Positions 29,420-51,857 of a stretch of DNA of 64,000 bases are shown in pieces (position 1 is the stretch's first letter; every line of letters starts with the position of its first letter). The stretch comes from a virus (taxonomy: Duplodnaviria; Heunggongvirae; Uroviricota; Caudoviricetes). A program made the translations under genes and the position numbers. The notes under the pieces are model-generated. The model worked only from the letters and a program-made list of their open reading frames with translations, ran no database searches and had not been told where the DNA came from. The stretch lies in the IMG/VR virus record IMGVR_UViG_2609459792_000007, one strand, 5' to 3'.

Positions 29420-29514
29420 TTAAAACAGCCTTAATGATAAGTAACTACTTACCATAGTTAATGGTATATTTATATAAGAACTTGAACGCTCATTAGAGAA
29501 CAAAGGAAAAGCGC

Positions 29515-30750
29515 ATGACTACTACTGCACTGCAAAATGATAAAAATCCTTCTGATTACCTTGTTTGCAAGTGGTGCGGCAAATCATTTCACTATTTTAA
29601 GTCCCATGTAGCCAATGGTAATTGCGAGGGCATTCCTGAGTCAGTAAAAGATGCCGATCCTGACACCGTACTGAAAATGTACACAACGCAGTTTCCAGAT
29701 GAACCAACGCTATCGAAAAAGGCACTTGATGCAATTCAAGCTAAACGTGCCGAGCAAAAAAGCGAAATGGCGAAATCTTCTGGCTTGACCAGTAGCCCAG
29801 GCTACACAGGCACAGTTGAGTACAAGACAGATCTGGTCGCAGCTCACGAACTGCTAAACGTAACGGTGGAAGAACTCGGAACAAAACGTGGGACGCCGCT
29901 CATGGTTAGCGTCAACGTCAATACGCCGTATCCAGAGTTCGTTCCAGAAGTGAAGAAGGGCTACGTATATGGCGACTTCGAACTTATCAAAGATATTTTC
30001 ATGATGCTTGAACTTGGCATACCTGGCTATTTGTGGGGTCATGCAGGAACAGGCAAATCGTCATTGCCTACACAGCTATGTGCTTTGCTCAATCGTCCGT
30101 TGATCCGTGCCCAACATACAGCATCAATGGAAGAGGCACATGTTACGGGGCAAATTCTGGCGCGTGATGGCTCTACGTATTTCGAGCCTGGCTTGCTTGC
30201 GCTCGCAATGAAGCATGGCTGGGTTTACCTCGCGGATGAATACGACTTTGCGTTTCCACAAATTCTTGGCGTGTATCAGCCAGTGCTGGAAGGTGAGGCG
30301 TTGGTCATCAAAGAGGCAACTCCAGAATGGCGTCGCATTACTCCGCATGAACGGTTTGCTTTCATTGGCACTGGCAACACAAACGGTTCTGGTGATGAAA
30401 CCGGCTTGTACCAGGGTACAAACATCCAGAACGCCGCGAACTTTTCACGTTTTGGCATCGTTTCGAATGTGAAATACATGAGCAAAGAGGCAGAGATCAA
30501 CATGTTGATAAATGCCGGTATCGTGGATGAATACGCAGAAAAGATGGTTAAGTTTGCCGGTATCGTTCGCGATGGATACGAAGAACACCTTATCAGTCAG
30601 CCAATTGGCCCTCGTGAACTTTTGTTGTCGGCCAAGATTGGAATGATGCGAGGCGACTTTGTGACAGGTATTGAGCGTTCTTTCATTAACAAACTCCCTT
30701 CAGCTTCTGCACAAGCGGCTCGTGAAGTTGTTCAAAAAATATTTGGTTAA
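29515..30750 (+). CDS. CobS/MoxR-like AAA+ ATPase
   Basis: 411 aa; Walker A GHAGTGKSS, Walker B VYLADEYD; N-terminal Cys/His cluster (CKWCGKSFHYFKSH..C); immediately downstream of the vWA partner. Confidence 0.7.
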   Translation: MTTTALQNDKNPSDYLVCKWCGKSFHYFKSHVANGNCEGIPESVKDADPDTVLKMYTTQFPDEPTLSKKALDAIQAKRAEQKSEMAKSSGLTSSPGYTGTVEYKTDLVAAHELLNVTVEELGTKRGTPLMVSVNVNTPYPEFVPEVKKGYVYGDFELIKDIFMMLELGIPGYLWGHAGTGKSSLPTQLCALLNRPLIRAQHTASMEEAHVTGQILARDGSTYFEPGLLALAMKHGWVYLADEYDFAFPQILGVYQPVLEGEALVIKEATPEWRRITPHERFAFIGTGNTNGSGDETGLYQGTNIQNAANFSRFGIVSNVKYMSKEAEINMLINAGIVDEYAEKMVKFAGIVRDGYEEHLISQPIGPRELLLSAKIGMMRGDFVTGIERSFINKLPSASAQAAREVVQKIFG

Positions 30751-30929: not shown

Positions 30930-33900
30930 ATGAAGGCACTGATGGTTCGAACTGACTTCTCACTTGGGGAGTCGGCTCTAAAAGCAGAAAACGCGGTGAA
31001 GATTGCCAGAGAAGCTGGCTACACCGCTGTAATTTCAGCAGATAGCATGAATATTGCGAGCGTTATTCCACTACAACGTGCCGCTGGTGACGACATGGCG
31101 GTTATTTGTGGTGTGAAACTAAACATTGTTGATGATCCCACATACGAGCACCGGGCTAAACTTGCTAAAGAATCTATGAGATGTATGGAATCATTAGAGC
31201 GGGGACGTAACTACTCGTTTACCGCTCTAATTAAAAATGAGCAAGGATATCGCGACATCTGCGAACTAATGACGGCGGCCAACACACGAGAACAGTTCTA
31301 CTTTGTACCGCGTCTCTCGCTCGAACAGTTGGTTTCTACATATGCCAAAGGCAACATCATCCTGCTTACTTCCGACATCGGTAGCGTGTTCCAACGCAAC
31401 GATTTTGCAAAAATCATAAGCACACTGATTACAGCGGGTGGAAAAGACAACTTCTATAGTGTGGTTTATCCGCACCCTACCCCATTCTACGACCAGATTA
31501 ACGTCCGGGCGATGAAAGTCGCCAGCGCATTGAAAATAGAGCCAGTGGCGTTCTATCCCGCTTATTACGAATCGATCGACGATGCAGACATTAAAGACAT
31601 TGCGCACATGGTTACGAACAACATAAAAATCGACCAGCCGCATCGTCTGCGTATCCCCCACCAGCGAGATAACGCCGTCAATGGTCGCCGCCATCTCCTT
31701 GAGGCGCTTAAAGCCTTCTCCGTTCGCATGGATGTGCCGGTAACAGCTGCAATGGCCTCAACAACGCAGGACTCCATTATCGAAGCCTGTACATGGCGCT
31801 GGCATGAATTGCCACCAGCACTGCCCAAGATGGCAGACGACGAGCCTGCAACGCTGATGAAACTGGCTGTTGCAGGGCTGCGCAAACGTCTTACCACAAA
31901 AGAGTTTGGCTACACACCACCGGCTTCTGAGAACAGGGTTTATGTTGAGCGACTTAAGTACGAAATGGACACGCTTACTCGCCTGGGATTTTGTGGTTAC
32001 TTCCTGATGGTACGCGATCTGATGAATCACAGCCGTGAAACTGGCATTCCTGTCGGGCCTGGTCGTGGTTCCTCTGCCGGTTCTCTGGTGGCGTGGTGCA
32101 TAGGCATAACCAACGTCGACCCAATCCGTCACGGTCTTCTGTTTGAGCGTTTCATCAACCCTGAGCGTCTCGACTTGCCGGATGCGGACTTGGACTTCAG
32201 CCAGGCACGTCGCCATGAGGTGATCGAGTATCTGAATGAACGCTACGGCGAAGATTACGTTGCAGGCATTCCGAACTTCACCTACCTGGGCGCAGCCTCT
32301 GCACTACGTGATACCGCTCGTATTTATGGTGTGGAGTCCGCAGATATGGCGGTATCAAAAGAACTGAAGAACGCTGAGGATGATAGCCTTCCATTGGAAG
32401 AACTGCGCGAACAACTGGCAAGTCTCGACAAATACGCAACAAAATATCCTGATGCATTCAATGCAGCCTGCAAGTTACAAAGCCTTATGCGTGGCTTTGG
32501 TAGACATGCGGCAGGGATGATCGTAGCAGGTGTTCCTCTGACAGAACGTACACCGGTTGAGCGCCGTGGTGACGCGCGTTGTATCGCATTTGACAAGCGT
32601 TACTGCGAGGCTATGGGCCTAATTAAGCTGGACGTGCTTGGCCTGGCAACTCTCGATTTGCTCGATAGTGCAAAACGCTACATAAAAGAGAACACAGGTG
32701 AAGATATCAATCTTGATGCCATTTCTCTTGAAGATCGCAAGGTGCTGGATGGTTTTGCTGCTGGGTACACTCAAGGTGTTTTCCAGCTTGAATCAGGCCC
32801 AATGCGCAAGCTGCTTAAAGATTTAGGTGGTGGAATTGAGCCAATGAGCTTTAAAACGGTCGTCGCTACAACTGCGCTCTTCCGGCCGGGGCCAATTCAA
32901 TCAGGCATGTTGGATGACTATGTTTCTGTCGCCAAAGGCTTTATGACGCCGGAATCATTACACCCCGTTCTTGATGAACTTACCGCGGAAACAAATGGCG
33001 TGATTCTCTATCAGGAACAGACGATGAACGCGACTCGATTGCTTGCCGGCTTCACAATGGCTGAAGCTGACGCTGTGCGTTCCGCAATCGGTAAGAAGAA
33101 CATGGAAAAAATGAAGAGCATGGGCGAGAAGTTCATCGTTCAGGCTCAAGCTGGCTGGATAGACGTTGAGCTGGAAGATGGCACTACACAGCGCATTCAC
33201 CGTGCGGAACATTTTAAATGCGAAGACGGAACTCTGAAAACTGTCGAAGAGGCACTTGAGCACGGCGCAAAACTACCTATAAACGCAGTACGCGTTACAG
33301 CGTCACATCCAGGGCTATCAGAGATGAAAGCGAAGGAGATCTGGACCGCATTCGAAAAGAATGGTGCCTACCAGTTCAACAAATCACACTCTGTTGCTTA
33401 CTCCTTAATCAGCTATCAATCTATGTGGTTGAAAACTCATTATCCCGCAGAGTTTTTCGCTGCTGCTCTCACTATTCTTGGCGAAGATAAACACCAGGGG
33501 CTGGTTAAAGATGCGCTGACCTATGGTATTCGCGTATTGCCACCAGACGTTAACGTGTCATCTAACCGAATTGAGATCCGCACGCTTGAAGATGGCAGCC
33601 AGGTGCTGTATGCGCCCTTCTCTGCTGTGAAGGGGTGTTCTGAGAATGGCTGCCAGGCCATCATGAGAGCGCGAGAAAAGGTTGGTGGCAAATTCGAGTC
33701 ACTTGCGCAATTCGAAGAAGCTGTCGAGAAACGTGCCTGTAATAGTCGAGTGCGCGAATCGCTGCAAAAAGTAGGGGCGTTTGCATCCATCGAGCCAGGT
33801 AGTCTGCCAGCAACTGATCCAGAGCGCCTCCGCGACCAGGCAGAATTGATGGGAAACCTTGTCATAGACGCAGTTAAAGCCTCACGTCCGTTTGAGATGA

Positions 33901-34448
33901 ACCCCAAACGATCGGCTGAAATTAACGCACTCATGACACGGATGGCGGCTGAAATGGGCTTAGGTGATGAACTAATCCGCCCCAGCATTGGTATTAAGCC
34001 GAAAATCATGATCATTCTGGACAATGCAAACGGCAATGATGCTCGAACCGGTTACTTCATGGAGAACGGATACGACGATTTTAAGGCCAAGCTGTTGACG
34101 GCTGGAGATTTGCGCATGGGCGATCTCTATGTCACAGGCGTTTGCAAAAAGGTGAAAGACAAAGAAAAGGACTACACCAAAGACGAGATCGGCCAGTTCA
34201 CCGACTTTATGCGTGAAGAGATCAATCTGGTACGTCCGACCTATGTGCTGACGTGTGGCAGTCGGGCAACGGCATTGTTTAACAACAAAAACAAGCCATC
34301 CGATTTAGTCGGTAGGAAGGAGTATCTTCCAGACCTTGACGTTACAGTCTTTTACGGGTTTAACCCCAACATTCTTTACTTCAGACCTGAAGAGGGAGAA
34401 CGACTAGAAGCGATATTAGCCGACGTAGCAGAAACTATTAAGTCGTGA
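30930..34448 (+). CDS. dnaE: DNA polymerase III alpha-like (DnaE-type, N-terminal PHP domain)
   Basis: 1172 aa; polymerase core segment GFCGYFLMVRDLMNHSRETGIPVGPGRGSSAGSLVAWCIGITNVDPI and downstream DnaE-like blocks. Confidence 0.8.
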   Translation: MKALMVRTDFSLGESALKAENAVKIAREAGYTAVISADSMNIASVIPLQRAAGDDMAVICGVKLNIVDDPTYEHRAKLAKESMRCMESLERGRNYSFTALIKNEQGYRDICELMTAANTREQFYFVPRLSLEQLVSTYAKGNIILLTSDIGSVFQRNDFAKIISTLITAGGKDNFYSVVYPHPTPFYDQINVRAMKVASALKIEPVAFYPAYYESIDDADIKDIAHMVTNNIKIDQPHRLRIPHQRDNAVNGRRHLLEALKAFSVRMDVPVTAAMASTTQDSIIEACTWRWHELPPALPKMADDEPATLMKLAVAGLRKRLTTKEFGYTPPASENRVYVERLKYEMDTLTRLGFCGYFLMVRDLMNHSRETGIPVGPGRGSSAGSLVAWCIGITNVDPIRHGLLFERFINPERLDLPDADLDFSQARRHEVIEYLNERYGEDYVAGIPNFTYLGAASALRDTARIYGVESADMAVSKELKNAEDDSLPLEELREQLASLDKYATKYPDAFNAACKLQSLMRGFGRHAAGMIVAGVPLTERTPVERRGDARCIAFDKRYCEAMGLIKLDVLGLATLDLLDSAKRYIKENTGEDINLDAISLEDRKVLDGFAAGYTQGVFQLESGPMRKLLKDLGGGIEPMSFKTVVATTALFRPGPIQSGMLDDYVSVAKGFMTPESLHPVLDELTAETNGVILYQEQTMNATRLLAGFTMAEADAVRSAIGKKNMEKMKSMGEKFIVQAQAGWIDVELEDGTTQRIHRAEHFKCEDGTLKTVEEALEHGAKLPINAVRVTASHPGLSEMKAKEIWTAFEKNGAYQFNKSHSVAYSLISYQSMWLKTHYPAEFFAAALTILGEDKHQGLVKDALTYGIRVLPPDVNVSSNRIEIRTLEDGSQVLYAPFSAVKGCSENGCQAIMRAREKVGGKFESLAQFEEAVEKRACNSRVRESLQKVGAFASIEPGSLPATDPERLRDQAELMGNLVIDAVKASRPFEMNPKRSAEINALMTRMAAEMGLGDELIRPSIGIKPKIMIILDNANGNDARTGYFMENGYDDFKAKLLTAGDLRMGDLYVTGVCKKVKDKEKDYTKDEIGQFTDFMREEINLVRPTYVLTCGSRATALFNNKNKPSDLVGRKEYLPDLDVTVFYGFNPNILYFRPEEGERLEAILADVAETIKS

Positions 34449-34456
34449 TCCAATAA

Positions 34457-34484
34457 ACATGGCCTCTATGGCCATGTTTTCTCT
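34457..34484 (+). terminator. rho-independent terminator
   Basis: ACATGGCC-TCTAT-GGCCATGT followed by TTTCTCTT. Confidence 0.65.
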
Positions 34485-34573
34485 TATCCCCTCATATCCC
34501 CTATCCTCGAACTCCTTGCCTTATCATCACAATGATATAATCAATATAAGATGATAAGTAAAAAGGAAAGCAC

Positions 34574-35005
34574 ATGATCACCGATATTTACGAGAAAATA
34601 ATGTCTGATCTCGAGTTTGACCGAGACAATCTGGAGGAAGTCTGGCGTAGACAACCCCGCCTTTTAATGGAGTATGGCTCAAAACTCGCTCATGCAGAAA
34701 GAAGTGTCGCAGAGGCAAAACTTAACCTTGAAGCTGTTGAAGCAAAGCTATACGACACAGAGCGTAAGAACTTGAGTATGAACGGCATTAAGTTCAACGA
34801 GTCTGTACTGGACGCTAAGGTTAAAACGAACCCACAGTATCTATCTAAACGGCAGAAGTTGGATGAAGCACGGCACATCGCAGACATATACAAACATGCT
34901 GTCGCCGCCTTCACGCATCGCCGAGACATGATCGTTCAGGCGTCGAAGATGGCCATCGTTGAATTAGAGCGATTAGGCTCTGAACGCTTTATTACTCCCC
35001 GTTGA
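34574..35005 (+). CDS. hypothetical protein, possibly UvsY-like recombination mediator
   Basis: 143 aa, helical; weak resemblance to T4 UvsY as recalled (shared KV.T..QY segment and similar spacing); sits beside gp32-like SSB and RecA-like genes. Confidence 0.35.
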   Translation: MITDIYEKIMSDLEFDRDNLEEVWRRQPRLLMEYGSKLAHAERSVAEAKLNLEAVEAKLYDTERKNLSMNGIKFNESVLDAKVKTNPQYLSKRQKLDEARHIADIYKHAVAAFTHRRDMIVQASKMAIVELERLGSERFITPR

Positions 35006-35122
35006 TTTTTGATAGATAATAAGTAAGTACTGATCTATCATTTAACAGCTCGAAAGAGCCACGAATGAACGAAAGCCCAACGCGCATAGCGCCATCGGCC
35101 AAATCACAACAAGGAGAAACAC

Positions 35123-36151
35123 ATGTCTAAGACATTACTTGATTTGCTTAACAAAACTCGTGAAGACATTGCTGCCAAACGTGGTAACAACGTTGATCTG
35201 ACTCGCTTAAAAGACGGCGTCAACTATATCCGCATCTTCCCGAATAAAGACGACCCAAACGGTAAGTTCTTCCAGACTTTCGGTATGCACTACGTTAAGT
35301 ATCAGAACGAGGAAGGTAAAGAAGCAACCAACGCTTATATTTGTGAGCAACATACTCACGGTCGCGCTTGTCAGCTATGCGAAATGGTTATGGAAGGTCG
35401 CGCTCGTCACAAGGGTAACAAAGCAATGGAAGAACGCATCGGTCAAATGCGTGCCACTCCTCGCTACCTGGTCAACGGCATTCTTTCTGCTCGTGAGGAT
35501 TTCGCAGATGCTGAGAAATGCCAGTTAATCGAGCTACCGTCTACTGTATTCGATGATATCTGCAAAGCAATCACCGAAGACATCGCTGATGATATCGGTA
35601 ATCCACTGAGCAAAGAGGAAGGCTACGCATTCCTGATTAAACGTACTGGCTCTGGTCGCGATACCAAATATGACGTCTCGCCTAAGCGTAAAGTCTACAA
35701 AGGCGATATCGAAGATAAATTCTGGAACACCCAGCATGATCTGATCGCATACGCAAATCAGGCTGATGAAACTCGTCTTCTGTCGACAGTTCGCACTATG
35801 GGTCGTCTGATTGGCATCGCTGCACCAACTGCCGCAGCATCTGCACCAGCAATTTCCTCAACCGCGAAAACATCGGCTGCGGCACTACCTGGATTTGGCT
35901 CTGTCACTGGTCATACGGAGGGTGCGACTGCTGTAGCAACCGCTCACACCCCAGCTTCTGAACCAACCAGTCTGGTTGATGAAGAAATCCTCCGTGCCGT
36001 TGAAACTGAATTTAAACCAGAAGCAAGTTCCGCTGCCGTTGCCGTATCAGTCAAAGAGTCTGAAGCAGTCGCAGCGACATCTGTAGCAACCGCATCTGCG
36101 ACGGAAGATGAAGGTCTGGATGACCTACTGAGAGAGCTGGACTCTCTGTAA
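35123..36151 (+). CDS. single-stranded DNA-binding protein, T4 gp32-like
   Basis: 342 aa; Cys-X3-His-X5-Cys-X2-Cys zinc motif (CEQHTHGRACQLC); IRIFPNKDDPNGKFF parallels gp32 IRFLPSKNDEQAPFA as recalled; acidic C-terminal tail. Confidence 0.7.
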   Translation: MSKTLLDLLNKTREDIAAKRGNNVDLTRLKDGVNYIRIFPNKDDPNGKFFQTFGMHYVKYQNEEGKEATNAYICEQHTHGRACQLCEMVMEGRARHKGNKAMEERIGQMRATPRYLVNGILSAREDFADAEKCQLIELPSTVFDDICKAITEDIADDIGNPLSKEEGYAFLIKRTGSGRDTKYDVSPKRKVYKGDIEDKFWNTQHDLIAYANQADETRLLSTVRTMGRLIGIAAPTAAASAPAISSTAKTSAAALPGFGSVTGHTEGATAVATAHTPASEPTSLVDEEILRAVETEFKPEASSAAVAVSVKESEAVAATSVATASATEDEGLDDLLRELDSL

Positions 36152-36211
36152 TCCCATTACGTGACCAGTAAGGCGTCTACGGACGCCTTACTTTTTGGAA
36201 GGAATGTACCG

Positions 36212-37156
36212 GTGATTTATCTCTTCGTAGATGGCAATAGCCTGGGTTATTACCACCAACAATCTGACAAATTGCACAACGGCGAAATGGAAGTACAGGC
36301 TGCTTTCGGCTTTGTTAAGAACGTCCGTCGTTATGCCTCCATCCTCCATGCCCGACCTATGATTCTTTGGGATGGATTTAGTGACAAGCGTCGCGACTTT
36401 TACCCGGACTACAAAGCAAATCGCGACGACGATCCTGATATGAAAAAGATGAAGGAAGGCTTTGCTGTCCAGAAGCCATACATCCTCAAAATGATGACCG
36501 CGCTTGGTGTTAACCAAATCATTGCAAAAGATGCAGAAGCGGATGATCTGGCCGGGCTGCTGGTATCCCGCATGGCACCGCAGCCAACCGTTGAACACAT
36601 CTATCTGTTAACAGGCGATAGCGACTGGCTTCAGTTAGTTCGTGAAAACGTAAGCTGGGTAAGCCTGCGTGAAGACGCCAAAAACAAGCAGGTTAATTTT
36701 GAGCAATTTGCGGAGCTGACAGGATTCGCCACGCCTCGCGCATTTTTGGAAGCAAAAGCATTACAAGGCGATAACTCGGACAACATTAGCGGTGTTGGAG
36801 GCATTGGTGCTGGCGGTGCGAAAGAGCTGCTGCATGAATGGGGAAGTGTCGCAACGATGGTACGCGGCATCAACGACGGCTCAATCGTGGTTAATAAAGG
36901 GCGTCATAAGACCGCCTTCAACAAACTAGCGAAGAATGCCTTCAACGAGAAAACAGGCTGTCGAATGCTCGAAGCGTTCAAGAGAAACATCACGCTAATG
37001 AACCTGATTGAGACGAAGTTTCCGCCTACCGAAATCGAAACAATCAAAGGCAATCGTGACGTGAAAGCATTCGAGCAACTGTGCTACGAGCTGAATTTCC
37101 GTTCGTTCCTTGAAGACCTTGAAGTGTTTGTTCTTCCATTCGAAAGGTATTGCTAA
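36212..37156 (+). CDS. 5'-3' exonuclease / flap endonuclease
   Basis: PIN-like N-terminus VIYLFVDGNSLG and H3TH motif LQGDNSDNISGVGGIG. Start placed at GTG 36212 (RBS GGAAGGA) because the ORF-track start 36161 overlaps the upstream terminator hairpin. Confidence 0.75.
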   Translation: MIYLFVDGNSLGYYHQQSDKLHNGEMEVQAAFGFVKNVRRYASILHARPMILWDGFSDKRRDFYPDYKANRDDDPDMKKMKEGFAVQKPYILKMMTALGVNQIIAKDAEADDLAGLLVSRMAPQPTVEHIYLLTGDSDWLQLVRENVSWVSLREDAKNKQVNFEQFAELTGFATPRAFLEAKALQGDNSDNISGVGGIGAGGAKELLHEWGSVATMVRGINDGSIVVNKGRHKTAFNKLAKNAFNEKTGCRMLEAFKRNITLMNLIETKFPPTEIETIKGNRDVKAFEQLCYELNFRSFLEDLEVFVLPFERYC

Positions 37157-37422
37157 TGCTTAAATCGATTATTAATGGCGCTACAACCACCCCTACCCAA
37201 CTGGCAAAAGAGATTGTCTTTTATCACGGTGAGTACGCTGTCATCGCACTGCCGTCAATTCTAGGCGCTGCCGGAATGAAAGCGACAGATCGCGAGTTTG
37301 GATTAGTCAGCGAGCAGGTCGTAAAAATCCTCGCTCGTGTATCCAGACTCCTTAACCACGATGCGATTGTATTCGACGAATCCGCCGCTTTAAAACGAAT
37401 CAACGAAACAAAAGGAGCCTGA
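37150..37422 (+). CDS. hypothetical protein
   Basis: 90-aa ORF; no motif recognised. Confidence 0.4.
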   Translation: MLMLKSIINGATTTPTQLAKEIVFYHGEYAVIALPSILGAAGMKATDREFGLVSEQVVKILARVSRLLNHDAIVFDESAALKRINETKGA

Positions 37423-37424
37423 TC

Positions 37425-38498
37425 ATGGCAAAAGGAAAATCCGCACTGGCACTTGCTCTGAAAAAGAAAATCGGTAGCAACGACGAAATTCAGAAAGTAA
37501 CTCATTGGATTGACACAGGCTTTCCTCCGTTAAACAAAGCTATTTCCGGTCGTTACGATGGCGGTTTCCCATGTGGTCGTATCGTAGAAGTATTCGGGCC
37601 GCCAAGCGCGGGGAAAACCTTTTTGGCAACAGCAGCAATGATCTCCGCTCAGAAACAAGATGGTCTGGCGGTATTCCTCGATCATGAGAACAGTTTTGAC
37701 GTTGGCCTGGCGGTAGCCAATGGCTTGAATGCAGATGAGGATGACGGTCAGTGGGTATACAAGCAGCCAGATACCTTCGAAGACTCTGTAGAGTTGATCG
37801 GCACAATACTTAAATTGGTACGTGATGAAGAGCTTATCCCTGAATCAGCACCTATCTGTATCGTGGCTGACTCACTTGCGTCTATGGTTCCGAACTCCAA
37901 AGCCGAGAAGTTCGAAAAGATGGCTGAAGGCACTGCTAAAGACAAAGATCAGCTAAACATGAACGACAATACGGCGCTTGCTCGTGCGACGAGCGCAAAC
38001 TTCCCCACTCTGGCTTTGTGGGCACGCAAATATAACGCCTGCATTATTTTCTTGAATCAGGTTCGCACAAAAATCGGTGTAATGTTTGGCGACCCTACGA
38101 CGTCGCCAGGCGGCGATTCACCGAAGTTTTACGCTTCTGTGCGCATCCGTCTCGGTGCATCGGTGATGAAGGATGGTAAAGAGAAGATCGGTCAGGACGT
38201 AGGCGCAGAGTGCATCAAAAACAAAGTTGCACCACCGTATGGCAAGTGCACCTGGAAATTCTACTTCGATCCTACTCGTGGCCTCGACGTTATCGAATCG
38301 CTCGTCGAGTACATGCTGGAAGAAGGATACCTGCCAAAGAACGCCAGCGGTCGAGTAGAAATTGGTGACAAGAAATACACCAAATCACAGATCGTCGAGA
38401 TGTATCGGGAGAAGCCACTAGCTGAAATCATTGCGGCTTTACAGGCAATCGACGACCGGAGATCAAAAGACAATCCCACCGAGTCAGTAGAAGAGTAA
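37425..38498 (+). CDS. RecA-like recombinase
   Basis: 357 aa; Walker A GPPSAGKTF; IVADSLASMVP and FLNQVRTKIGVMFGDPTTSPGG..KFYASVRIRL parallel bacterial RecA blocks as recalled. Confidence 0.8.
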   Translation: MAKGKSALALALKKKIGSNDEIQKVTHWIDTGFPPLNKAISGRYDGGFPCGRIVEVFGPPSAGKTFLATAAMISAQKQDGLAVFLDHENSFDVGLAVANGLNADEDDGQWVYKQPDTFEDSVELIGTILKLVRDEELIPESAPICIVADSLASMVPNSKAEKFEKMAEGTAKDKDQLNMNDNTALARATSANFPTLALWARKYNACIIFLNQVRTKIGVMFGDPTTSPGGDSPKFYASVRIRLGASVMKDGKEKIGQDVGAECIKNKVAPPYGKCTWKFYFDPTRGLDVIESLVEYMLEEGYLPKNASGRVEIGDKKYTKSQIVEMYREKPLAEIIAALQAIDDRRSKDNPTESVEE

Positions 38499-38513
38499 AC
38501 ACAAGGCGTCCAC

Positions 38514-38539
38514 AGGACGCCTTTTTTATCTCTTGAAAA
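38514..38539 (+). terminator. rho-independent terminator
   Basis: AGGCGTCC-ACAG-GGACGCCT followed by TTTTTT. Confidence 0.8.
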
Positions 38540-38590
38540 TATATAAGTACTTACTTATCATTTTCACATAACAACCACATAGGAAAACAC

Positions 38591-38791
38591 ATGATCAAAA
38601 TCTATCTATTGGCAGTAGCCACAGGCCTTTCAGTGGCTCTCATCTACGGATTACTGGTTCCGTCGCTGATTTCTGCAAAGAGTGATTTGGCCGTCATGCT
38701 TGGAGTTATTGTTGGTTTTGGCGCTCCAGTAATCGGTCTTATTGGTGGTCGTAAGTTTATTAACTCATTAATCAAAGCAAAGGGGAAATAA
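38591..38791 (+). CDS. small integral membrane protein
   Basis: 66 aa with two hydrophobic helices; immediately upstream of the SPFH lipoprotein gene. Confidence 0.5.
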   Translation: MIKIYLLAVATGLSVALIYGLLVPSLISAKSDLAVMLGVIVGFGAPVIGLIGGRKFINSLIKAKGK

Positions 38792-38794
38792 GTA

Positions 38795-39625
38795 ATGAAG
38801 AAAGGTTTACTTGCAGTTGCTCTGGCGGCTATTTGCACAATGGGTCTTACTGGCTGTGATCGCGTAGAGCCTGGATACGTTGGCATCAAAGTAAACAAAT
38901 TAGGTGAAGACAAAGGGATTGGTGAAGTGGTTGGCGTTGGTCGCCAATGGACAGGTCTTAACACCGAACTTTACGTATTCCCGACCTTCAAACAAATGAA
39001 GACCTACGACGAGCCGTTCACATTCCAGATGAGTGACGGTACTGCTATTGGTCACAAAATTGGCGTTGCGTATCTGGTTAATCGTGACAAGGTAACGACG
39101 GTGTTCCAGACCTATCGCAAAGGCGTAGACGATATCACCGAATCAGATCTGCGTCAGAAAATTGCCGACTCTCTAAACCGTTTGGCCAGCCGTATGACCA
39201 CTGACTCATTTATCGACGGTGGTAAGGCACAATTGTTGGACAACGCACTGAAAGATATTCAGAAAGAGATGTCTCCGGTTGGTATTGAGGTACTGAGCCT
39301 GTCATGGGTTGGAAAGCCTGATTACCCAAAAACCGTCATTGAATCTATCAACGCCAAAGTAACGGCTAACCAGCGTACTCTGCAACGTCAGCAGGAAGTC
39401 GAACAGCGTAAAGCTGAGGCGAATATGCTGCGTGAACAGGCTAATGGTGAAGCTGATGCTATCCGTGCTCGTGCGCAAGCAGAAGCAGACGCCATTCGTC
39501 TGCGCGGTGAAGCTCTGCGTCAAAACCCGAACGTTATGGAACTGGAAGCCATCAATAAATGGAATGGCCAGTTACCGCAGTACATGACTCAAGGGGCTAA
39601 CACTCCTTTCATTACAGTGAAATAA
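38795..39625 (+). CDS. SPFH/band-7 domain lipoprotein
   Basis: 276 aa; signal peptide with lipobox L-T-G-C; central band-7-like region and C-terminal Ala/Glu/Arg-rich coiled coil. Confidence 0.6.
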   Translation: MKKGLLAVALAAICTMGLTGCDRVEPGYVGIKVNKLGEDKGIGEVVGVGRQWTGLNTELYVFPTFKQMKTYDEPFTFQMSDGTAIGHKIGVAYLVNRDKVTTVFQTYRKGVDDITESDLRQKIADSLNRLASRMTTDSFIDGGKAQLLDNALKDIQKEMSPVGIEVLSLSWVGKPDYPKTVIESINAKVTANQRTLQRQQEVEQRKAEANMLREQANGEADAIRARAQAEADAIRLRGEALRQNPNVMELEAINKWNGQLPQYMTQGANTPFITVK

Positions 39626-39643: not shown

Positions 39644-39669
39644 GGCGTCCAGTTGGACGCCGTTTTATT
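39644..39669 (+). terminator. rho-independent terminator
   Basis: GGCGTCC-AGTT-GGACGCC followed by GTTTTATT. Confidence 0.8.
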
Positions 39670-47313: not shown

Positions 47314-48399
47314 ATGACTTTGCCATACGGCGTCATTTCTGACTGCCACTACCACAAATGGGATGCGTTCTCCACGACGAACGCTGAGGGGCTTAACTCC
47401 AGACTTGAAATACAGTTGGAAGCAACGAAAGAAGCAGCCATCGCCATGAAGAAGGCCGGTTGTAAGTACATGTTGGTTGCCGGTGATACATTTCACGTCC
47501 GAGGAACTGTGTCCCCTTCTGTTTTGCATTACGTAACTGAAACGTACAAGTGGATTATCAACGAGCTTGATCTGACAGTAGTAATGCTGGCCGGTAATCA
47601 CGATCTTGAAACCAACGATTCAGTATATAGCGCCAACGCAGCAGCATCGCTGAGTTCTATCGGCGTGGTAATCGTATGTGGCAAGCGCCCACACTCAATA
47701 AAAATTGGTGATGTGACTGTCCACCTGATTAGCTGGCGTAACAATCATGCGGAGCTTATCAGCGATCTGAAAGCATTACGTAAGAGCGTAGAAGGTGATA
47801 ATCATGACGTTGTTATCCATACATCCATTAACAAAGCCATTCCAACAATGCCTGACGTCGGTATCGATGCGCAGGAGTTAAAGGATATCGGCTTTCGTCT
47901 CGTGCTTAGTGGGCATTACCACAACCACAAAGAGGTCATTCCTGGAGTTATCAGTGTCGGTGCACTGACTCATCAAAATTGGGGAGATGTTGGATCTCTG
48001 GCTGGCTACATGATCGTAAACCCGGACGGCAGTTTCAGTCACTACGAAACCAGTGCGCCTAAATTCATTAACCTGGAAGATGATGTTGCTGATGACCAAA
48101 TTCGCGGCAACTACGTGCGTTTCCGCGCCTTAATTGAGAACGATGAAGAAGGCATTAAGTACCAGAACATCCTCAAAACAATGGGTGCAAAAGGTGTCGT
48201 GTGCAACTTCATCCGTAAGTCATCAATGATGGAAGGTACAGCCAGCACAACTGAAACCAGCAAAATCGATAGCCTTGGAGAGTCGGTATCTGCTTATTGC
48301 AAGATTGTCCACGATACTGACGGCGGATTTGATCTGAGCAAATTGGATATTTTGTGTCAGGAAATCCTCACCGAAGCGGAGAGTTCGGAGGCTGTGTGA
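47314..48399 (+). CDS. SbcD/Mre11-like nuclease (T4 gp47-like)
   Basis: 361 aa; metallophosphoesterase motifs VAGDTFH and LAGNHD; followed by SbcC-like ATPase gene. Confidence 0.75.
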   Translation: MTLPYGVISDCHYHKWDAFSTTNAEGLNSRLEIQLEATKEAAIAMKKAGCKYMLVAGDTFHVRGTVSPSVLHYVTETYKWIINELDLTVVMLAGNHDLETNDSVYSANAAASLSSIGVVIVCGKRPHSIKIGDVTVHLISWRNNHAELISDLKALRKSVEGDNHDVVIHTSINKAIPTMPDVGIDAQELKDIGFRLVLSGHYHNHKEVIPGVISVGALTHQNWGDVGSLAGYMIVNPDGSFSHYETSAPKFINLEDDVADDQIRGNYVRFRALIENDEEGIKYQNILKTMGAKGVVCNFIRKSSMMEGTASTTETSKIDSLGESVSAYCKIVHDTDGGFDLSKLDILCQEILTEAESSEAV

Positions 48400-48628: not shown

Positions 48629-50545
48629 ATGAAGTTTTTAAAGCTCCAGGTTGAGAATTTTATGGCTATCGCCAGCGCGGAGGTCGAGTTAGATCAGCGT
48701 GGTTTAGTGCTTATTCAGGGTGTTAATAGTGATGATAGTTCCGCATCAAGTAATGGCTCTGGAAAGTCAACTCTAATGAATAGCCTGATGTGGTGTCTTT
48801 ATGGCGAAACAGCTCATGGTGTGAAGGGTGACGATGTGTTGTCTACCGACCATGAAAAGAACTGTCGTGTTGCAGTAACCATCGAGGATGAAGGCAAGAG
48901 ATACGCAATCATTCGTCACCGTAAACACAAAGAGTTCAAAAATCGTCTTATCGTTCGTGGTGAAGATGGCGATATGACGAAAGGCAAAGATGCGCTGACG
49001 CAGGAGTTCGTCGAGCGTCTGATCGGTGCATCTAAAGAGGTTTTCATGGCTTCCATCTATGCGAGCCAAGAAGCTATGCCAGATTTACCTGGAATGTCCG
49101 ACAAAAACCTCAAAACCATCGTAGAAGAAGCCGCTGGCGTTGACAGACTGACACGCGCCTACGCTATTGCTCGTGAGCGAGCTAATGCAGCTGCCGCACG
49201 TATGGATGTGGTTAAAACCAAATTGGAGTCGACAATCTCGACCATTGAGGCAACACAGTCAGAAATTGAGTCAGCGAAAGCCTCCTCTGAATCATGGGAG
49301 CAAGAGCGTTCTAAACGTTATGACGATGCCCTGGCTGGGCTGGCCAGTGCCGAAGTTGAGTTAACGGAAGTTGAACTTGAGATCCGCACTCTTCCCGAAC
49401 AGATACGTGATACCGAGAAGGCAATCGAAAGTGAGCGCAAAAAGTTAGCCTCAAAAGAAGAACATGACGCCAAGTTGCTCAAAGTTCGTGGTGCGATAAC
49501 TGATATTCGGGCAAGCATCAAAGCTACAGAAAATAGTCAGGCTGATGCAATGAACCGCGCGCGTAATTTTAAGACCAAAGCAGAAGAGGTTGGTACTAAA
49601 GTGGGATCACCATGCCCTACTTGTGGCAAAGCCTACTGCGAAGAAGATCTATCAACGGTGAAGGAGAGTTTCATTGAACAAGCACGTCAGGAAATTGGTC
49701 AGGCGAAGACACTTGCAGAGGCAATGGCTAAACACAAAACGAATCTTGAGAAAGCGTTAAGCATTGAGTCTGCCCTTGTTAAAACGACACCTGATGTAAC
49801 GGCTATCATTGCCCGGATTGAAGAGCTTACGAAACAACTCTCATCTTTGCGTCATCGTGAGAAGGAGGTTGTTGCTATTGAGTCTCTTGTGACTCGTGCT
49901 CGTACTGAGGTCGATCGTATATCAAAAGAGATTAATCCGTTTATTGCTCTTATCGCCAGACACGAAGATAACTTGGTATCCAGTAAGTCTACCTTCAAGT
50001 CCTTAAAAGATGAGTTGAAGGCTATTCAGGAACAAACGTTGCTATTGGAAAAAGCTCGTCAGGTCTACTCTCCTGCCGGGGTGCGTTCTCATATTTTGAC
50101 GTCTGTTACGCCTTTCCTGAATACACGCACTGCCGAGTATCTCAATACGTTGTCTGACGGGAATATTACTGCTGAGTGGTCGACGATGGATGTCACTAAA
50201 AAAGGTGAGTATCGCGACAAATTCAACATTAGTGTGCAGAAGAAAGGTTCAAGTAAGTCGTTCCAGACCCTCTCTGGTGGTGAGAAGCGGAAGGTTCGCA
50301 TTGCGTGTTCTTTGGCATTGCAGGATCTGGTTAGTAACCGGGCGAGTAAAAACATCGATTTGTTTATCGGCGACGAAATTGACGATGCACTCGATACAGC
50401 CGGTCTTGAACGCCTCATGGGTATTCTGGAGTCCAAAGCTCGCGAGCGAGGTACTGTGCTGATTATCTCCCATAAAGAGATGAAGTCATGGTTCCGGGAA
50501 ACTATTACGCTGGAAGTTAAAGAGGGGCGCAGCTATGTCGTTTAA
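48629..50545 (+). CDS. SbcC/Rad50-like ATPase (T4 gp46-like)
   Basis: 638 aa; Walker A NGSGKST, long coiled coil with CPTCGKAYC zinc-hook-like motif, ABC signature LSGGEKRKV and Walker B LFIGDEID. Confidence 0.8.
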   Translation: MKFLKLQVENFMAIASAEVELDQRGLVLIQGVNSDDSSASSNGSGKSTLMNSLMWCLYGETAHGVKGDDVLSTDHEKNCRVAVTIEDEGKRYAIIRHRKHKEFKNRLIVRGEDGDMTKGKDALTQEFVERLIGASKEVFMASIYASQEAMPDLPGMSDKNLKTIVEEAAGVDRLTRAYAIARERANAAAARMDVVKTKLESTISTIEATQSEIESAKASSESWEQERSKRYDDALAGLASAEVELTEVELEIRTLPEQIRDTEKAIESERKKLASKEEHDAKLLKVRGAITDIRASIKATENSQADAMNRARNFKTKAEEVGTKVGSPCPTCGKAYCEEDLSTVKESFIEQARQEIGQAKTLAEAMAKHKTNLEKALSIESALVKTTPDVTAIIARIEELTKQLSSLRHREKEVVAIESLVTRARTEVDRISKEINPFIALIARHEDNLVSSKSTFKSLKDELKAIQEQTLLLEKARQVYSPAGVRSHILTSVTPFLNTRTAEYLNTLSDGNITAEWSTMDVTKKGEYRDKFNISVQKKGSSKSFQTLSGGEKRKVRIACSLALQDLVSNRASKNIDLFIGDEIDDALDTAGLERLMGILESKARERGTVLIISHKEMKSWFRETITLEVKEGRSYVV

Positions 50546-51287: not shown

Positions 51288-51857
51288 ATGAGTAAAAAAA
51301 TCAGCGTAGTTGGTGTTGATCCCTCAATGAGCAACTTTGGGCTTGCTGTGGGCACTTTAGACCTTGAGACGGACGAACTTGAGATTCACGGCCTTACTCT
51401 TGTTGAGACTAAAGCGGGGAGTAACAAAAAGACCGTTCGTGTGAACAGTGACGATCTGCGCCGCGCCAGTGAAATATGGCGTGTTGCGAAGCCAATCATT
51501 GATAAGGCAAATATGGTTTTTTGTGAGCTACCGGTTGGGAGCCAAAACTCTCGTTCGCAGACGTCTTACGGTATTTGTATCGGTGTACTTGCGTGTGTGG
51601 ATAAGCCATTGATCCAGGTTACTCCAAACGAAATCAAGCATTTTGTCGGCAATAAACTTACTACATCGAAAGAAGAGATTATCCAGTGGGCTACGAAAAA
51701 ACACCCTAAAGCACCGTGGCTGCGTCGTAAGCAATCTGGACAGGATGTTCTCGTGAACAAAAACGAACATTTGGCTGATGCGGTGGCTGCCATCCATACC
51801 GGTATGCAAACAGATCAGTTCCGCCAGGTGCGCGATGTTCTTAAGTCTCTCATTTGA
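51288..51857 (+). CDS. RuvC-like Holliday junction resolvase (putative)
   Basis: 189 aa; VVGVDPSMSNFGLAV parallels RuvC ILGIDPG..TGYGV; acidic FCELP; C-terminal EHLADAVAAIHTG parallels RuvC DAADALAIAITH. Confidence 0.55.
   Translation: MSKKISVVGVDPSMSNFGLAVGTLDLETDELEIHGLTLVETKAGSNKKTVRVNSDDLRRASEIWRVAKPIIDKANMVFCELPVGSQNSRSQTSYGICIGVLACVDKPLIQVTPNEIKHFVGNKLTTSKEEIIQWATKKHPKAPWLRRKQSGQDVLVNKNEHLADAVAAIHTGMQTDQFRQVRDVLKSLI

What the first reader, a model, noticed from the sequence alone, without database searches (positions are those of the whole stretch)
34574..38498. T4-style recombination set inside a lambda-tailed, P1-replicon element
A possible UvsY-like mediator, a gp32-like SSB with the Cys-X3-His-X5-Cys-X2-Cys zinc motif, a flap endonuclease and a RecA-like recombinase are adjacent, with SbcCD-like and RuvC-like genes further on. 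The RecA-like protein looks closer to bacterial RecA than to T4 UvsX, so the module is mosaic; this mix of lambda-like, T4-like and P1-like modules in one window is itself notable.
Basis: partly seen in the sequence, partly recalled or inferred. Interest (0 to 1): 0.4.

Follow-up and report, generated by a model that had tools for sequence, protein, structure and literature searches.

The report
Phage-plasmid UvsY–gp32–RecA recombination cassette
They are an old block inherited together with a RecA-type recombinase, not an unusual recent patchwork.

Summary
Window 34574-38498 encodes, in order, a UvsY-fold protein (143 aa), a gp32-family SSB, a T5/Pol I-type flap endonuclease, an 88-aa orphan and a RecA-family recombinase. 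SbcD, SbcC and a RuvC-like resolvase lie 9-13 kb downstream. A lambda J-type tail tip and a P1-type RepA are also in the window.

One detail is wrong. The zinc motif is C-X2-H-X-H-X3-C-X2-C, not C-X3-H-X5-C-X2-C, although the three cysteines are invariant from this protein to T4 gp32.

The UvsY call has no Pfam support. It rests on four results:
- The top 19 PDB fold matches are all T4 UvsY.
- A profile-profile comparison with the true UvsY family gives E = 1.8e-5.
- A weak PHROG match names a UvsY-like mediator.
- The gene order is conserved in distant relatives.

The "notable mosaic" reading is not supported. The window is 98% identical to known SSU5-like phage-plasmids, and one of them (Cyrano/pLF82) already carries UvsY / gp32-like / RecA labels. 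The same order, DnaE - UvsY-like - gp32 - FEN - RecA - SbcCD, recurs in distant phages such as Pseudomonas phage hairong, with all genes diverging in parallel.

Likely function (inferred, not shown): a T4-style presynaptic loading system that drives recombination-dependent replication and repair. Interest is low to moderate.

The parts
30930..34448 (+). DNA polymerase III alpha (DnaE) gene immediately upstream. It is the conserved left neighbour of the cassette.
   Evidence: Pfam PHP, DNA_pol3_alpha, finger and HHH_6 domains. DnaE directly precedes the UvsY-like gene in distant relatives.
34455..34479 (+). Terminator-like hairpin after dnaE (10-bp stem followed by a U-rich tail).
   Evidence: Consensus scan. 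RNA fold -15.7 kcal/mol, z = -5.95.
34533..34541 (+). Candidate extended -10 promoter TGATATAAT, 33 nt upstream of the UvsY-like start codon.
   Evidence: Read from the sequence. TGATA[TA]AAT is conserved at the same place in Cyrano and SSU5 although the flanks differ. Function is inferred.
34574..35005 (+). UvsY-like recombination mediator, 143 aa, four helices.
   Evidence: No Pfam hit. PHROG 231 at E = 1.8e-4. AF2 pLDDT 91.3. Foldseek PDB top 19 hits are all T4 UvsY. hhalign of the family against the UvsY family gives E = 1.8e-5, probability 78%. 9 of 51 family members weakly hit PF11056. Synteny with gp32 and RecA.
35123..36151 (+). gp32-family single-stranded DNA-binding protein, 342 aa. 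It has a Zn-ligand cluster (H56?, C74, C83, C86), an Ala/Ser/Thr-rich linker and an acidic C-terminal tail ending DEGLDDLLRELDSL.
   Evidence: PF08804 at E = 1.7e-66, profile positions 1-208 of 208. Cys/His positions. C74, T78, G80, C83, C86 and the LDDLL tail align with T4 gp32.
36167..36192 (+). Strong hairpin (11-bp stem) followed by UUUUU, directly after the gp32-like stop codon. Possible attenuator between gp32 and the FEN gene.
   Evidence: Sequence. RNA fold centroid -19.6 kcal/mol, z = -4.3. Function is inferred.
36212..37156 (+). 5'-3' exonuclease / flap endonuclease. The ORF is open from GTG 36161. The probable start is GTG 36212, behind the RBS GGAAGGAA, as annotated in SSU5 and Cyrano (314 aa).
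   Evidence: PF02739 at 1.2e-24 and PF01367 at 6.8e-12. The nearest solved relatives are T5 D15 FEN and Pol I 5' nuclease domains, E about 3e-14. The PHROG match begins at residue 18.
37156..37422 (+). 88-aa protein of unknown function (phrog_2207). Its start overlaps the FEN stop codon. It is confined to the SSU5 clade.
   Evidence: Homologues only in SSU5-like elements. Absent between FEN and RecA in distant syntenic loci. AF2 three-helix model with no PDB fold match.
37425..38498 (+). RecA-family recombinase, 357 aa, intein-free allele. Walker A is GPPSAGKT (residues 58-65). The L2 region NQVRTKIGVMFGDPTTSPGG is conserved.
   Evidence: PF00154 at 2.3e-42. PDB bacterial RecA at E = 1e-31 to 1e-35, against T4 UvsX at 1e-5. 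32% identity to E. coli RecA.
38503..38523 (+). Intrinsic-terminator-like hairpin (9-bp stem plus U6) that closes the unit after RecA.
   Evidence: Consensus scan. RNA fold -14.7 kcal/mol, z = -5.55.
47314..48399 (+). SbcD/Mre11-like nuclease subunit (counterpart of T4 gp47).
   Evidence: Pfam Metallophos. PHROG 100 'SbcD-like' at 1.7e-92.
48629..50545 (+). SbcC/Rad50-like ATPase subunit (counterpart of T4 gp46).
   Evidence: Pfam AAA_23, SMC_N and SbcC_Walker_B. PHROG 77 at 4.5e-165.
51288..51857 (+). RuvC-like Holliday-junction resolvase candidate.
   Evidence: PHROG 159 at 3e-57. No Pfam hit and no PDB sequence hit.

Best explanation
The region is the homologous-recombination cassette of an SSU5-like siphoviral phage-plasmid of E. 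coli. It appears to be one transcription unit. A conserved extended -10 promoter sits at about 34.53 kb. A hairpin follows gp32, and a terminator sits at 38.5 kb.

Proposed mechanism, by analogy with T4:
1. The SbcCD-like nuclease, encoded 9 kb downstream, resects DNA ends to single strands.
2. The gp32-type SSB coats the single-stranded DNA.
3. The UvsY-type mediator binds gp32-covered ssDNA and helps the element's own RecA-type recombinase displace gp32 and form the presynaptic filament.
4. Strand invasion then primes recombination-dependent replication and break repair by the element's own replisome (DnaE, DnaB-like helicase, primase, ligase).
5. The flap endonuclease removes primers and 5' flaps.
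6. The RuvC-like enzyme resolves junctions before packaging.

Shown here: the family or fold identity of each protein, the gene order, and its conservation in distant phages. Inferred: the physical interactions, the mediator activity, the operon structure, and the use of the system in lytic replication.
For: -
- UvsY fold: the AF2 model has pLDDT 91.3 and a helix pattern of 2-13, 20-69, 76-84 and 87-139. The 19 best PDB matches are all T4 UvsY, with rmsd 1.3-3.3 A for most of them over 130-141 columns. The best non-UvsY match reaches only TM 0.52.
- BFVD matches include named UvsY or repair proteins of T4-like phages: S-CAM3, Aeromonas 65.2 and Campylobacter NCTC12673.
- The profile-profile match to the genuine UvsY family has E = 1.8e-5. 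It aligns conserved positions of both families with each other: D12/D13, L20/L21, Q27-P28/N28-P29 and Y34/W35.
- The gp32-like protein keeps the three Zn cysteines and the acidic LDDLL tail of T4 gp32. In T4 that tail is the protein-interaction domain (own knowledge; review PMC3016280, listed).
- In four of six distant UvsY-like representatives examined, the gene lies between dnaE and gp32 - FEN - RecA. A fifth lies near RecA and FEN. The sixth had too little context.
- All cassette genes diverge in parallel.
- The T4 precedent for recombination-dependent replication that produces concatemers is PMC6337909 (abstract seen).
- Hairpins and the promoter.
Against: - Pfam's UvsY model does not match the 143-aa protein.
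- HMM searches of PDB sequences do not reach UvsY.
- hhalign against the single T4 sequence is not significant.
- Identity to T4 UvsY is only 13-17%, and the hhalign probability is 78%, not above 95%.
- All-helical folds are prone to spurious structural matches.
- The T4 ssDNA-binding residues K58 and R60 do not align with conserved basic residues in the hhalign alignment.
- Nothing here shows expression, oligomeric state, or any interaction with the RecA-like protein.
- A RecA-type recombinase has not been shown to work with a UvsY-type mediator.
Confidence: 0.75

Rival explanations
1. Recent mosaic. A bacterial RecA gene was captured from a host and placed next to T4-derived UvsY and gp32 genes, so the partners are not co-adapted.
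For: The recombinase scores far better against bacterial RecA (112-124 bits) than against T4 UvsX (27.8 bits). Phage-plasmids of this family exchange other modules: RepA differs (49% identity) between elements that are 98% identical in this cassette.
Against: RecA is only 32% identical to E. coli RecA but 43-54% identical to the RecAs of distant phages that carry the same gene order. The UvsY-like, gp32, FEN, RecA, DnaE and SbcCD genes all diverge in parallel across those loci.
Confidence: 0.07
2. The 143-aa protein is not a recombination mediator. It is a generic helical or coiled-coil protein whose resemblance to UvsY is coincidental, with some other role such as a replisome accessory factor or a regulator.
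For: No Pfam hit. Foldseek E-values are only about 1e-3. Sequence identity to T4 UvsY is low. Its own PHROG family (2058) has no assigned function.
Against: The fold match is full-length and specific. UvsY chains fill ranks 1-19, and the next hit has TM 0.52. Independent sequence evidence comes from PHROG 231, hhalign at E = 1.8e-5, and PF11056 being the only Pfam family hit by more than one member, 9 of 51. The position next to gp32 and RecA is conserved at 32-36% identity.
Confidence: 0.1
3. The cassette acts mainly in the plasmid (lysogenic) state. It would repair or restart replication of the low-copy plasmid prophage, or modulate the host SOS response and defences, rather than drive lytic recombination-dependent replication.
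For: The element replicates as a plasmid with a P1-type RepA. Cyrano is kept at about 5.5 copies per cell (PMC9928086). RecA-like genes are persistent across SSU5-type phage-plasmids (PMC7969092).
Against: The same cassette occurs in Pseudomonas phage hairong and in metagenomic phage contigs. In all of them it sits inside a replication and nucleotide-metabolism block (DnaE, helicase, primase, ligase, NrdAB, ThyA) typical of lytic DNA synthesis. Whether those phages have a plasmid state was not examined. No timing or expression data were available.
Confidence: 0.2

Closest known systems
Bacteriophage T4 presynaptic system: UvsX recombinase, UvsY mediator, gp32 SSB (with gp46/47 nuclease)
   Same: The mediator has the UvsY fold. 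The SSB is a full-length PF08804 member with the same Zn cysteines and the same acidic LDDLL C-terminal tail. An SbcCD-type nuclease pair is present.
   Different: The recombinase is RecA-type, not UvsX-type. The mediator falls below Pfam's UvsY threshold. The nuclease for flaps is T5/Pol I-type FEN; T4 RNase H was not among the solved-structure sequence matches. The resolvase is RuvC-like; T4 uses endonuclease VII (own knowledge). In this cassette the genes are adjacent; in T4 they are dispersed (own knowledge). The virion is a lambda-tailed siphovirus and the element replicates as a plasmid.
SSU5-like phage-plasmids (Salmonella phage SSU5, pHCM2, E. coli pLF82 = phage Cyrano, CMS-2020a, PhiR41_1)
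   Same: The cassette is 96.9-98% identical in nucleotides to Cyrano, CMS-2020a and PhiR41_1, and 81% to SSU5, with the same gene order. 793 PLSDB plasmids match. Cyrano's record already names UvsY, gp32-like SSB, exonuclease and RecA.
   Different: This window lacks the hicAB pair that Cyrano and SSU5 carry between dnaE and the UvsY-like gene. It also lacks the 422-aa intein that interrupts RecA in Cyrano and many plasmids. Its RepA is of the Cyrano/SSU5 type, not the CMS-2020a type.
Pseudomonas phage hairong (Nickievirus) and related metagenomic siphovirus contigs
   Same: Same order: ligase - CobT - CobS-like - DnaE - UvsY-like - gp32 - FEN - RecA - SbcD - SbcC.
   Different: Proteins are only 25-54% identical. 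The UvsY-like domain is often the C-terminus of a 290-420 aa protein with a long acidic N-terminal extension. The genes for the UvsY-like and gp32 proteins are annotated as hypothetical there.
Bacterial RecFOR / RecO - SSB - RecA loading pathway
   Same: Functionally analogous: a mediator loads a RecA-type recombinase onto SSB-coated ssDNA and uses the SSB's acidic C-terminal tail as a hub (own knowledge; PMC7913777, listed).
   Different: No RecO, RecR or RecF homologue and no OB-fold bacterial-type SSB was identified in the cassette. The mediator and the SSB belong to the phage UvsY and gp32 lineages.

Membership tests
UvsY recombination mediator (Pfam PF11056; T4 UvsY, PDB 4ZWQ-4ZWT) | Sequence match to the curated family model above threshold | tested here: not met
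   No PF11056 hit for the window protein even at E <= 1. T4 UvsY scores 4.6e-53. 9 of 51 members of the window protein's wider family give weak hits, best 7e-5.
UvsY recombination mediator (Pfam PF11056; T4 UvsY, PDB 4ZWQ-4ZWT) | Remote homology by profile methods, colinear over the whole protein | tested here: met
   hhalign of 51 sequences against 24 true UvsY sequences: E = 1.8e-5, probability 78%, 114 columns, residues 1-117 against T4 1-121. PHROG 231 at E = 1.8e-4, residues 3-120 against profile 5-129 of 142. The narrow 16-sequence profile gives only E = 0.009.
UvsY recombination mediator (Pfam PF11056; T4 UvsY, PDB 4ZWQ-4ZWT) | Four-helix UvsY protomer fold | tested here: met
   AF2 pLDDT 91.3. 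Foldseek PDB ranks 1-19 are all T4 UvsY chains, with query-normalised TM 0.65-0.80, target-normalised TM 0.73-0.93 and rmsd down to 1.3 A.
UvsY recombination mediator (Pfam PF11056; T4 UvsY, PDB 4ZWQ-4ZWT) | Basic ssDNA-binding residues of the LKARLDY motif (T4 K58, R60; own knowledge) | tested here: inconclusive
   The hhalign alignment has a gap here and pairs K58 and R60 with D61 and E63. The window family has its own nearly invariant K49, R64 and K73 nearby. A structure-based alignment was not available.
UvsY recombination mediator (Pfam PF11056; T4 UvsY, PDB 4ZWQ-4ZWT) | Heptameric ring; binding to gp32 and recombinase; mediator activity | not testable with these tools
   No multimer prediction or biochemistry was available.
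UvsY recombination mediator (Pfam PF11056; T4 UvsY, PDB 4ZWQ-4ZWT) | Encoded together with a gp32-type SSB and a RecA/UvsX-type recombinase | tested here: met
   Adjacent to gp32 and two to three genes from RecA, both here and in distant relatives.
gp32 SSB family (Pfam PF08804) | Full-length match to the family model above the gathering score | tested here: met
   224.7 bits against a cut-off of 26.8, profile positions 1-208 of 208. This equals T4 gp32's own score of 226.4 bits. Direct BLASTP to T4 gp32 is weak, E = 0.064.
gp32 SSB family (Pfam PF08804) | Zinc ligands (T4 H64, C77, C87, C90; own knowledge of the crystal structure) | tested here: met
   C74, C83 and C86 are invariant with T4 C77, C87 and C90. 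H56 is conserved in the SSU5 and Nickievirus-type proteins and is the likely H64 equivalent, but MAFFT does not align the two, so the His ligand is unconfirmed. The literal C-X3-H-X5-C-X2-C spacing is absent.
gp32 SSB family (Pfam PF08804) | Acidic C-terminal protein-interaction tail | tested here: met
   The tail ends ...EDEGLDDLLRELDSL against T4 ...DDTDLDDLLNDL. The LDDLL motif is conserved in all seven aligned proteins.
gp32 SSB family (Pfam PF08804) | Basic N-terminal cooperativity motif (T4 K3-R-K-S-T7; own knowledge) | tested here: not met
   The N-terminus is MSKTLLDLLNKTREDIAAKRG, with no KRKST-like run. Cooperativity may be achieved otherwise.
RecA (Pfam PF00154) | Family model match, Walker A/B and L2 DNA-binding loop | tested here: met
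   PF00154 at 2.3e-42. GPPSAGKT, the hydrophobic strand ending in D149, and NQVRTKIGVMFGDPTTSPGG align with E. coli RecA.
T4 UvsX-type recombinase | Closer to UvsX than to bacterial RecA | tested here: not met
   T4 UvsX 3io5 scores 27.8 bits and other phage UvsX structures 40-44 bits, against 112-124 bits for bacterial RecA. PHROG 97 'UvsX-like recombinase' matches (1.2e-91). This is not evidence for UvsX membership, because RecA scores far higher against solved structures.
5'-3' exonuclease / flap endonuclease (FEN) family | N-terminal resolvase-like nuclease domain plus H3TH/SAM-fold domain | tested here: met
   PF02739 at 1.2e-24 and PF01367 at 6.8e-12. T5 FEN 1exn at E = 3.3e-14. Catalytic carboxylates were not checked individually.
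SSU5-like phage-plasmids | Nucleotide similarity and shared gene order with SSU5, pHCM2 and pLF82; lambdoid-type tail genes; IncFIB/P1-type RepA | tested here: met
   98% identity to CMS-2020a and PhiR41_1, 96.9% to Cyrano, 81% to SSU5. 793 plasmid matches. J-type tail fibre. RepA is 100% identical to Cyrano's, 91% to SSU5's and 47.5% to P1's. Family description in PMC7969092.

The most novel reading that the evidence does not exclude
UvsY-type mediators may not be a speciality of T4-like myoviruses paired with UvsX. They may form a very large, mostly unannotated family. The exhaustive search found 3,479 clusters at 50% identity with E <= 1e-3, and 553 with E <= 1e-10. In DnaE-encoding siphoviruses and phage-plasmids this family appears to have co-evolved with a gp32-type SSB and a bona fide RecA-type recombinase. 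If so, a UvsY-like ring loads a RecA-type protein onto gp32-coated ssDNA, a mediator-recombinase pairing not studied biochemically as far as my searches show. The long forms would use acidic N-terminal 'DDLEALLxxLED' repeats that mimic the gp32 tail to compete for the same partner.
Probability: 0.45. Interest if true: 0.45.

Novelty: already known. Interest (0 to 1): 0.25.

Why it matters
For this window the result is mainly a clean annotation. The cassette is a standard, conserved part of SSU5-like phage-plasmids, which are common in clinical Escherichia, Klebsiella, Salmonella, Enterobacter and Yersinia. It is not a new chimera.

The wider value is modest but real. Most public records examined label the UvsY-like and gp32-like genes of this family 'hypothetical'. 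PHROG lists the UvsY-like family as function unknown, and Pfam's UvsY model misses it. Recognising a large UvsY-like family linked to RecA-type recombinases would improve phage annotation. It would also give a natural system for asking how a mediator discriminates between recombinases. It could supply alternative enzyme sets for recombinase-based isothermal amplification, which currently relies on T4-type UvsX/UvsY/gp32 (PMC12357552, listed).

Tried and rejected
- Pfam scan of the 143-aa protein: no hit.
- phmmer of the protein, and hmmsearch of a 16-sequence profile, against PDB sequences: only chance-level hits and no UvsY.
- hhalign of the narrow profile against the single T4 UvsY sequence: E = 0.31, not significant. 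Against the UvsY family it gave E = 0.009. Only the broad 51-sequence profile gave a usable signal.
- phmmer of the gp32-like protein against PDB sequences: nothing. Pairwise BLASTP to T4 gp32 gave E = 0.064. Membership therefore rests on the Pfam profile and the multiple alignment.
- The search for related loci with the broad alignment failed because no stretch was conserved enough. Synteny was obtained with the look-up of encoding contigs instead.
- The 88-aa ORF between FEN and RecA has homologues only within the SSU5 clade. Its AF2 model is usable only for the top model (pLDDT 83; the others 55-70). Foldseek against PDB gave nothing below E = 2.9. Its function stays unknown.
- The Rfam scan of 34300-38900 found no RNA family, so no known gene-32-type leader element is present.
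- The 9-bp inverted repeat around the promoter (34520-34558) was considered as an operator. Its half-site is not enriched in the window and the arms are not conserved in Cyrano or SSU5. It is left as an observation only.
- The RuvC-like protein has no PDB sequence hit and no Pfam hit. Its assignment rests on PHROG 159 alone.
- Literature: no paper in the library holds both SSU5 and UvsY, or both pHCM2 and gp32.

Full report
**What the window is.** The 4.2 kb around the finding is 97.8-98.0% identical over its full length to Escherichia phage CMS-2020a and PhiR41_1. It is 96.9% identical to Escherichia phage Cyrano, 81% to Salmonella phage SSU5 and about 79% to several Klebsiella phage-plasmids. 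It also matches 793 PLSDB plasmids: Klebsiella 313, Escherichia 231, Enterobacter 91, Yersinia 63 and Salmonella 49. Of these, 758 are non-mobilizable. The window is therefore a piece of an SSU5-like phage-plasmid.

The rest of the window fits that identification:
- lambda-type tail assembly protein and central tail fibre J (121-711, 723-5453), plus a long tail fibre
- DnaB-like helicase, primase, ATP-dependent ligase, a tyrosine recombinase and a CobT-like protein
- a ParA-like ATPase
- an AAA_5 (CobS-like) ATPase and DnaE
- RepA (44616-45671, minus strand), 100% identical to Cyrano's, 91% to SSU5's and 47.5% to P1 RepA
- SbcD, SbcC, NrdA and NrdB
- a RuvC-like protein, thymidylate synthase and DHFR

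**Checking the observation, gene by gene.**

(i) The 143-aa protein (34574-35005) has no Pfam match. Its own PHROG family (2058) has no function, but it gives a weak full-length match to PHROG 231, 'UvsY-like recombination mediator' (E = 1.8e-4). Close homologues are confined to SSU5-like elements.

An AlphaFold2 model from a 16-sequence alignment is confident: mean pLDDT 91.3, with helices at 2-13, 20-69, 76-84 and 87-139. Against the PDB, Foldseek ranks 1-19 are all chains of the T4 UvsY crystal structures 4ZWQ/R/S/T. Query-normalised TM is 0.65-0.80, target-normalised TM is 0.73-0.93, and rmsd goes down to 1.3 A over 130-141 columns. The first non-UvsY hit has TM 0.52. In the viral structure library the same fold appears in many phage proteins. 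These include named UvsY or repair proteins of Synechococcus phage S-CAM3, Aeromonas phage 65.2 and Campylobacter phage NCTC12673.

Sequence-only tests were weaker. phmmer and hmmsearch against PDB sequences missed UvsY. hhalign against the single T4 sequence was not significant; I verified that sequence as identical to 4zws_A.

An exhaustive profile search showed that the protein belongs to a large family: 3,479 representatives at E <= 1e-3 and 553 at E <= 1e-10. A 51-sequence alignment of that family was compared with a 24-sequence alignment of genuine PF11056 UvsY proteins. The result was E = 1.8e-5, probability 78%, 114 colinear columns. It pairs conserved positions of the two families: D12/D13, L20/L21, Q27-P28/N28-P29 and Y34/W35. 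PF11056 is also the only Pfam family weakly hit by more than one member, 9 of 51. I conclude that the protein is a remote UvsY homologue.

(ii) The 342-aa protein (35123-36151) matches Pfam gp32 (PF08804) over the whole profile at 1.7e-66. That is the same strength as T4 gp32 itself, 4.9e-67. The sequence is C74-E-Q-H77-T-H79-G-R-A-C83-Q-L-C86. In a multiple alignment with SSU5, three distant syntenic homologues, the homologue from Pseudomonas phage hairong and T4 gp32, residues C74, T78, G80, C83 and C86 are invariant. The C-terminal 'LDDLLxxLDxL' tail is shared with T4's '...DLDDLLNDL'. The T4 N-terminal KRKST motif is absent.

(iii) The next ORF carries both FEN domains. It is closest to T5 D15 flap endonuclease and Pol I 5' nuclease domains. 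Its likely start is GTG 36212, not 36161.

(iv) An 88-aa ORF (37156-37422) follows. It is restricted to the SSU5 clade and has no recognisable fold.

(v) The 357-aa protein (37425-38498) is a RecA-family recombinase: PF00154 at 2.3e-42. It scores 112-124 bits against solved bacterial RecA proteins, 27.8 bits against T4 UvsX and 40-44 bits against other phage UvsX structures. It is 32% identical to E. coli RecA, with a conserved P-loop and L2 region.

**Is it a mosaic?** I looked up the genomic context of six distant UvsY-like representatives, which are 32-36% identical to the window protein where measured.
- Four lie in the order (CobT) - AAA_5/CobS-like - DnaE - UvsY-like - gp32 - FEN - RecA - ... 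- SbcD - SbcC, as far as the contigs reach.
- One of these four is Pseudomonas phage hairong, genus Nickievirus. There the UvsY-like and gp32 genes are annotated as hypothetical.
- A fifth lies in a Pol A-type phage with RecA and FEN within 4 kb.
- The sixth had too little flanking sequence.

Pairwise identities between the window and the three syntenic loci L003, L005 and L010 (hairong) fall in the same range for every gene. UvsY-like is 32-36%, gp32 25-31%, FEN 35-42%, RecA 43-54%, DnaE 36-41%, the CobS-like protein 36-45% and SbcCD 33-43%. The recombinase is thus nearer to these phage RecAs than to the host's RecA. The block behaves as one co-inherited unit. The 'mosaic' reading is not supported for the recombination set.

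At the scale of the whole element, the mixture of lambdoid-like tail genes, IncFIB/P1-type replicon and persistent RecA-like genes has already been described for the SSU5 supercommunity (PMC7969092). Cyrano is plasmid pLF82 of E. coli LF82, re-annotated by the authors of PMC9928086. Its record already names the four genes UvsY recombination mediator, SSB T4 gp32-like, Exonuclease and RecA. I found no paper in the library that discusses this: searches for SSU5 with UvsY and for pHCM2 with gp32 returned nothing.

**Anatomy of the unit.**
- A hairpin follows dnaE at 34455-34479.
- A TGATATAAT extended -10 element at 34533-34541 is conserved in Cyrano and SSU5, although the surrounding sequence differs.
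- A very stable hairpin with a U5 tail follows the gp32 stop codon (36167-36192; z = -4.3).
- A terminator-like hairpin with a U6 tail follows RecA (38503-38523; z = -5.6).

This suggests one transcription unit, with possible attenuation after the SSB gene. That would give more mediator and SSB than nuclease and recombinase. This is inference only.

**Mechanism proposed.** By analogy with T4 (reviews PMC3016280 and PMC6337909, seen, plus own knowledge), the steps would be as follows. SbcCD-type resection produces ssDNA. The gp32-type SSB coats it. The UvsY-type mediator remodels the gp32-ssDNA complex and loads the RecA-type recombinase. Strand invasion primes recombination-dependent replication by the element's own DnaE replisome. 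FEN trims flaps and primers, and the RuvC-like enzyme resolves junctions before packaging.

Shown here are the protein identities, the synteny and the co-divergence. Everything about interactions, activity and timing is inferred. Three alternatives are scored in the rivals section: a maintenance or repair role in the plasmid state, a non-mediator role for the 143-aa protein, and recent capture of recA.

**Verdict.** The locus is a near-identical copy of sequences already deposited and, in one record, already annotated this way. I therefore rate novelty as 'already known' and interest as low to moderate (0.25).

The residual interest is the size of the UvsY-like family and how poorly it is annotated, together with its consistent pairing with RecA-type recombinases in the loci examined.

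Noticed in passing
window 37425-38498 (RecA), site between codons K64 and T65; L001 8831-11170: In Cyrano the RecA gene is 779 aa. A 422-aa insert starting with Cys sits exactly inside the P-loop, GPPSAGK|T. Many plasmid relatives show a 'LAGLIDADG family homing endonuclease' at this place, and their match to the window splits into two pieces. This looks like an intein with a homing endonuclease. The window carries the empty, intein-free allele, a potential homing target.
   Followed up: partly
window 34448-34574; L001 4030-6006; L002 4410-6000: Cyrano and SSU5 carry extra genes between dnaE and the UvsY-like gene. In Cyrano these are annotated as a hicA/hicB toxin-antitoxin pair on the opposite strand. 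This window, like CMS-2020a, has only 125 bp there. The dnaE-uvsY junction is a variable insertion spot.
   Followed up: partly
window 44616-45671 (-): Replicon swap among close relatives. The window's RepA is 100% identical to Cyrano's. It is only 48.8% identical to the RepA of CMS-2020a and PhiR41_1, which are the closest matches (98%) in the recombination cassette.
   Followed up: partly
P0088, P0112, P0084 (L005 8001-9080; L010 8001-9266): Many UvsY-like proteins are 290-420 aa long, with the UvsY-like domain at the C-terminus. They have a long acidic, low-complexity N-terminal extension with repeated motifs such as DDLEALLAGLED and DDLDALLGDLDD. These resemble the LDDLLxxLDxL tail of the gp32-family SSBs. 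They may compete for the same binding partner.
   Followed up: no
window 34520-34558: A perfect 9-bp inverted repeat, CTTATCATC-N21-GATGATAAG, brackets the putative TGATATAAT promoter of the cassette. It is unique in the window. The half-site is not enriched and the arms are not conserved in Cyrano or SSU5.
   Followed up: yes
window 36167-36192, 38503-38523, 39644-39661: Three terminator-like hairpins share nearly the same stem sequence, (AA)GGCGTC(C)...(G)GACGCC(TT). They follow gp32, RecA and the SPFH/stomatin-like gene. This may be a recurrent terminator type of the element.
   Followed up: no
window 27311-30750 and L003, L005, L008, L010: A CobT-like protein and an AAA_5 (CobS/MoxR-like) ATPase are conserved immediately upstream of dnaE, in this element and in the distant phages that share the cassette. 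Their role next to the replisome genes is unexplained.
   Followed up: no
window 30930-34448 versus L003 4087-7431, L005 4549-7914, L010 4552-7935: The DnaE proteins of the distant relatives carry a precomputed UDG-family (PF03167) hit after the HHH_6 domain. The scan of the window's 1172-aa DnaE did not report it at E <= 0.01. Its C-terminal ~200 residues remain unassigned.
   Followed up: no
window 37156-37422: An 88-aa ORF is wedged between FEN and RecA, with its start overlapping the FEN stop codon. It is conserved (67-98% identity) only in SSU5-clade elements and is absent from the distant syntenic cassettes. It has no Pfam or PDB fold match. It may be a clade-specific accessory of the recombinase.
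   Followed up: yes
window 14938-15705 (-): A 255-aa ORF on the opposite strand, among plus-strand genes, has a LEM-3-like GIY-YIG nuclease domain (PF22945, 5.5e-7). It may be a homing endonuclease or a stand-alone nuclease.
   Followed up: no
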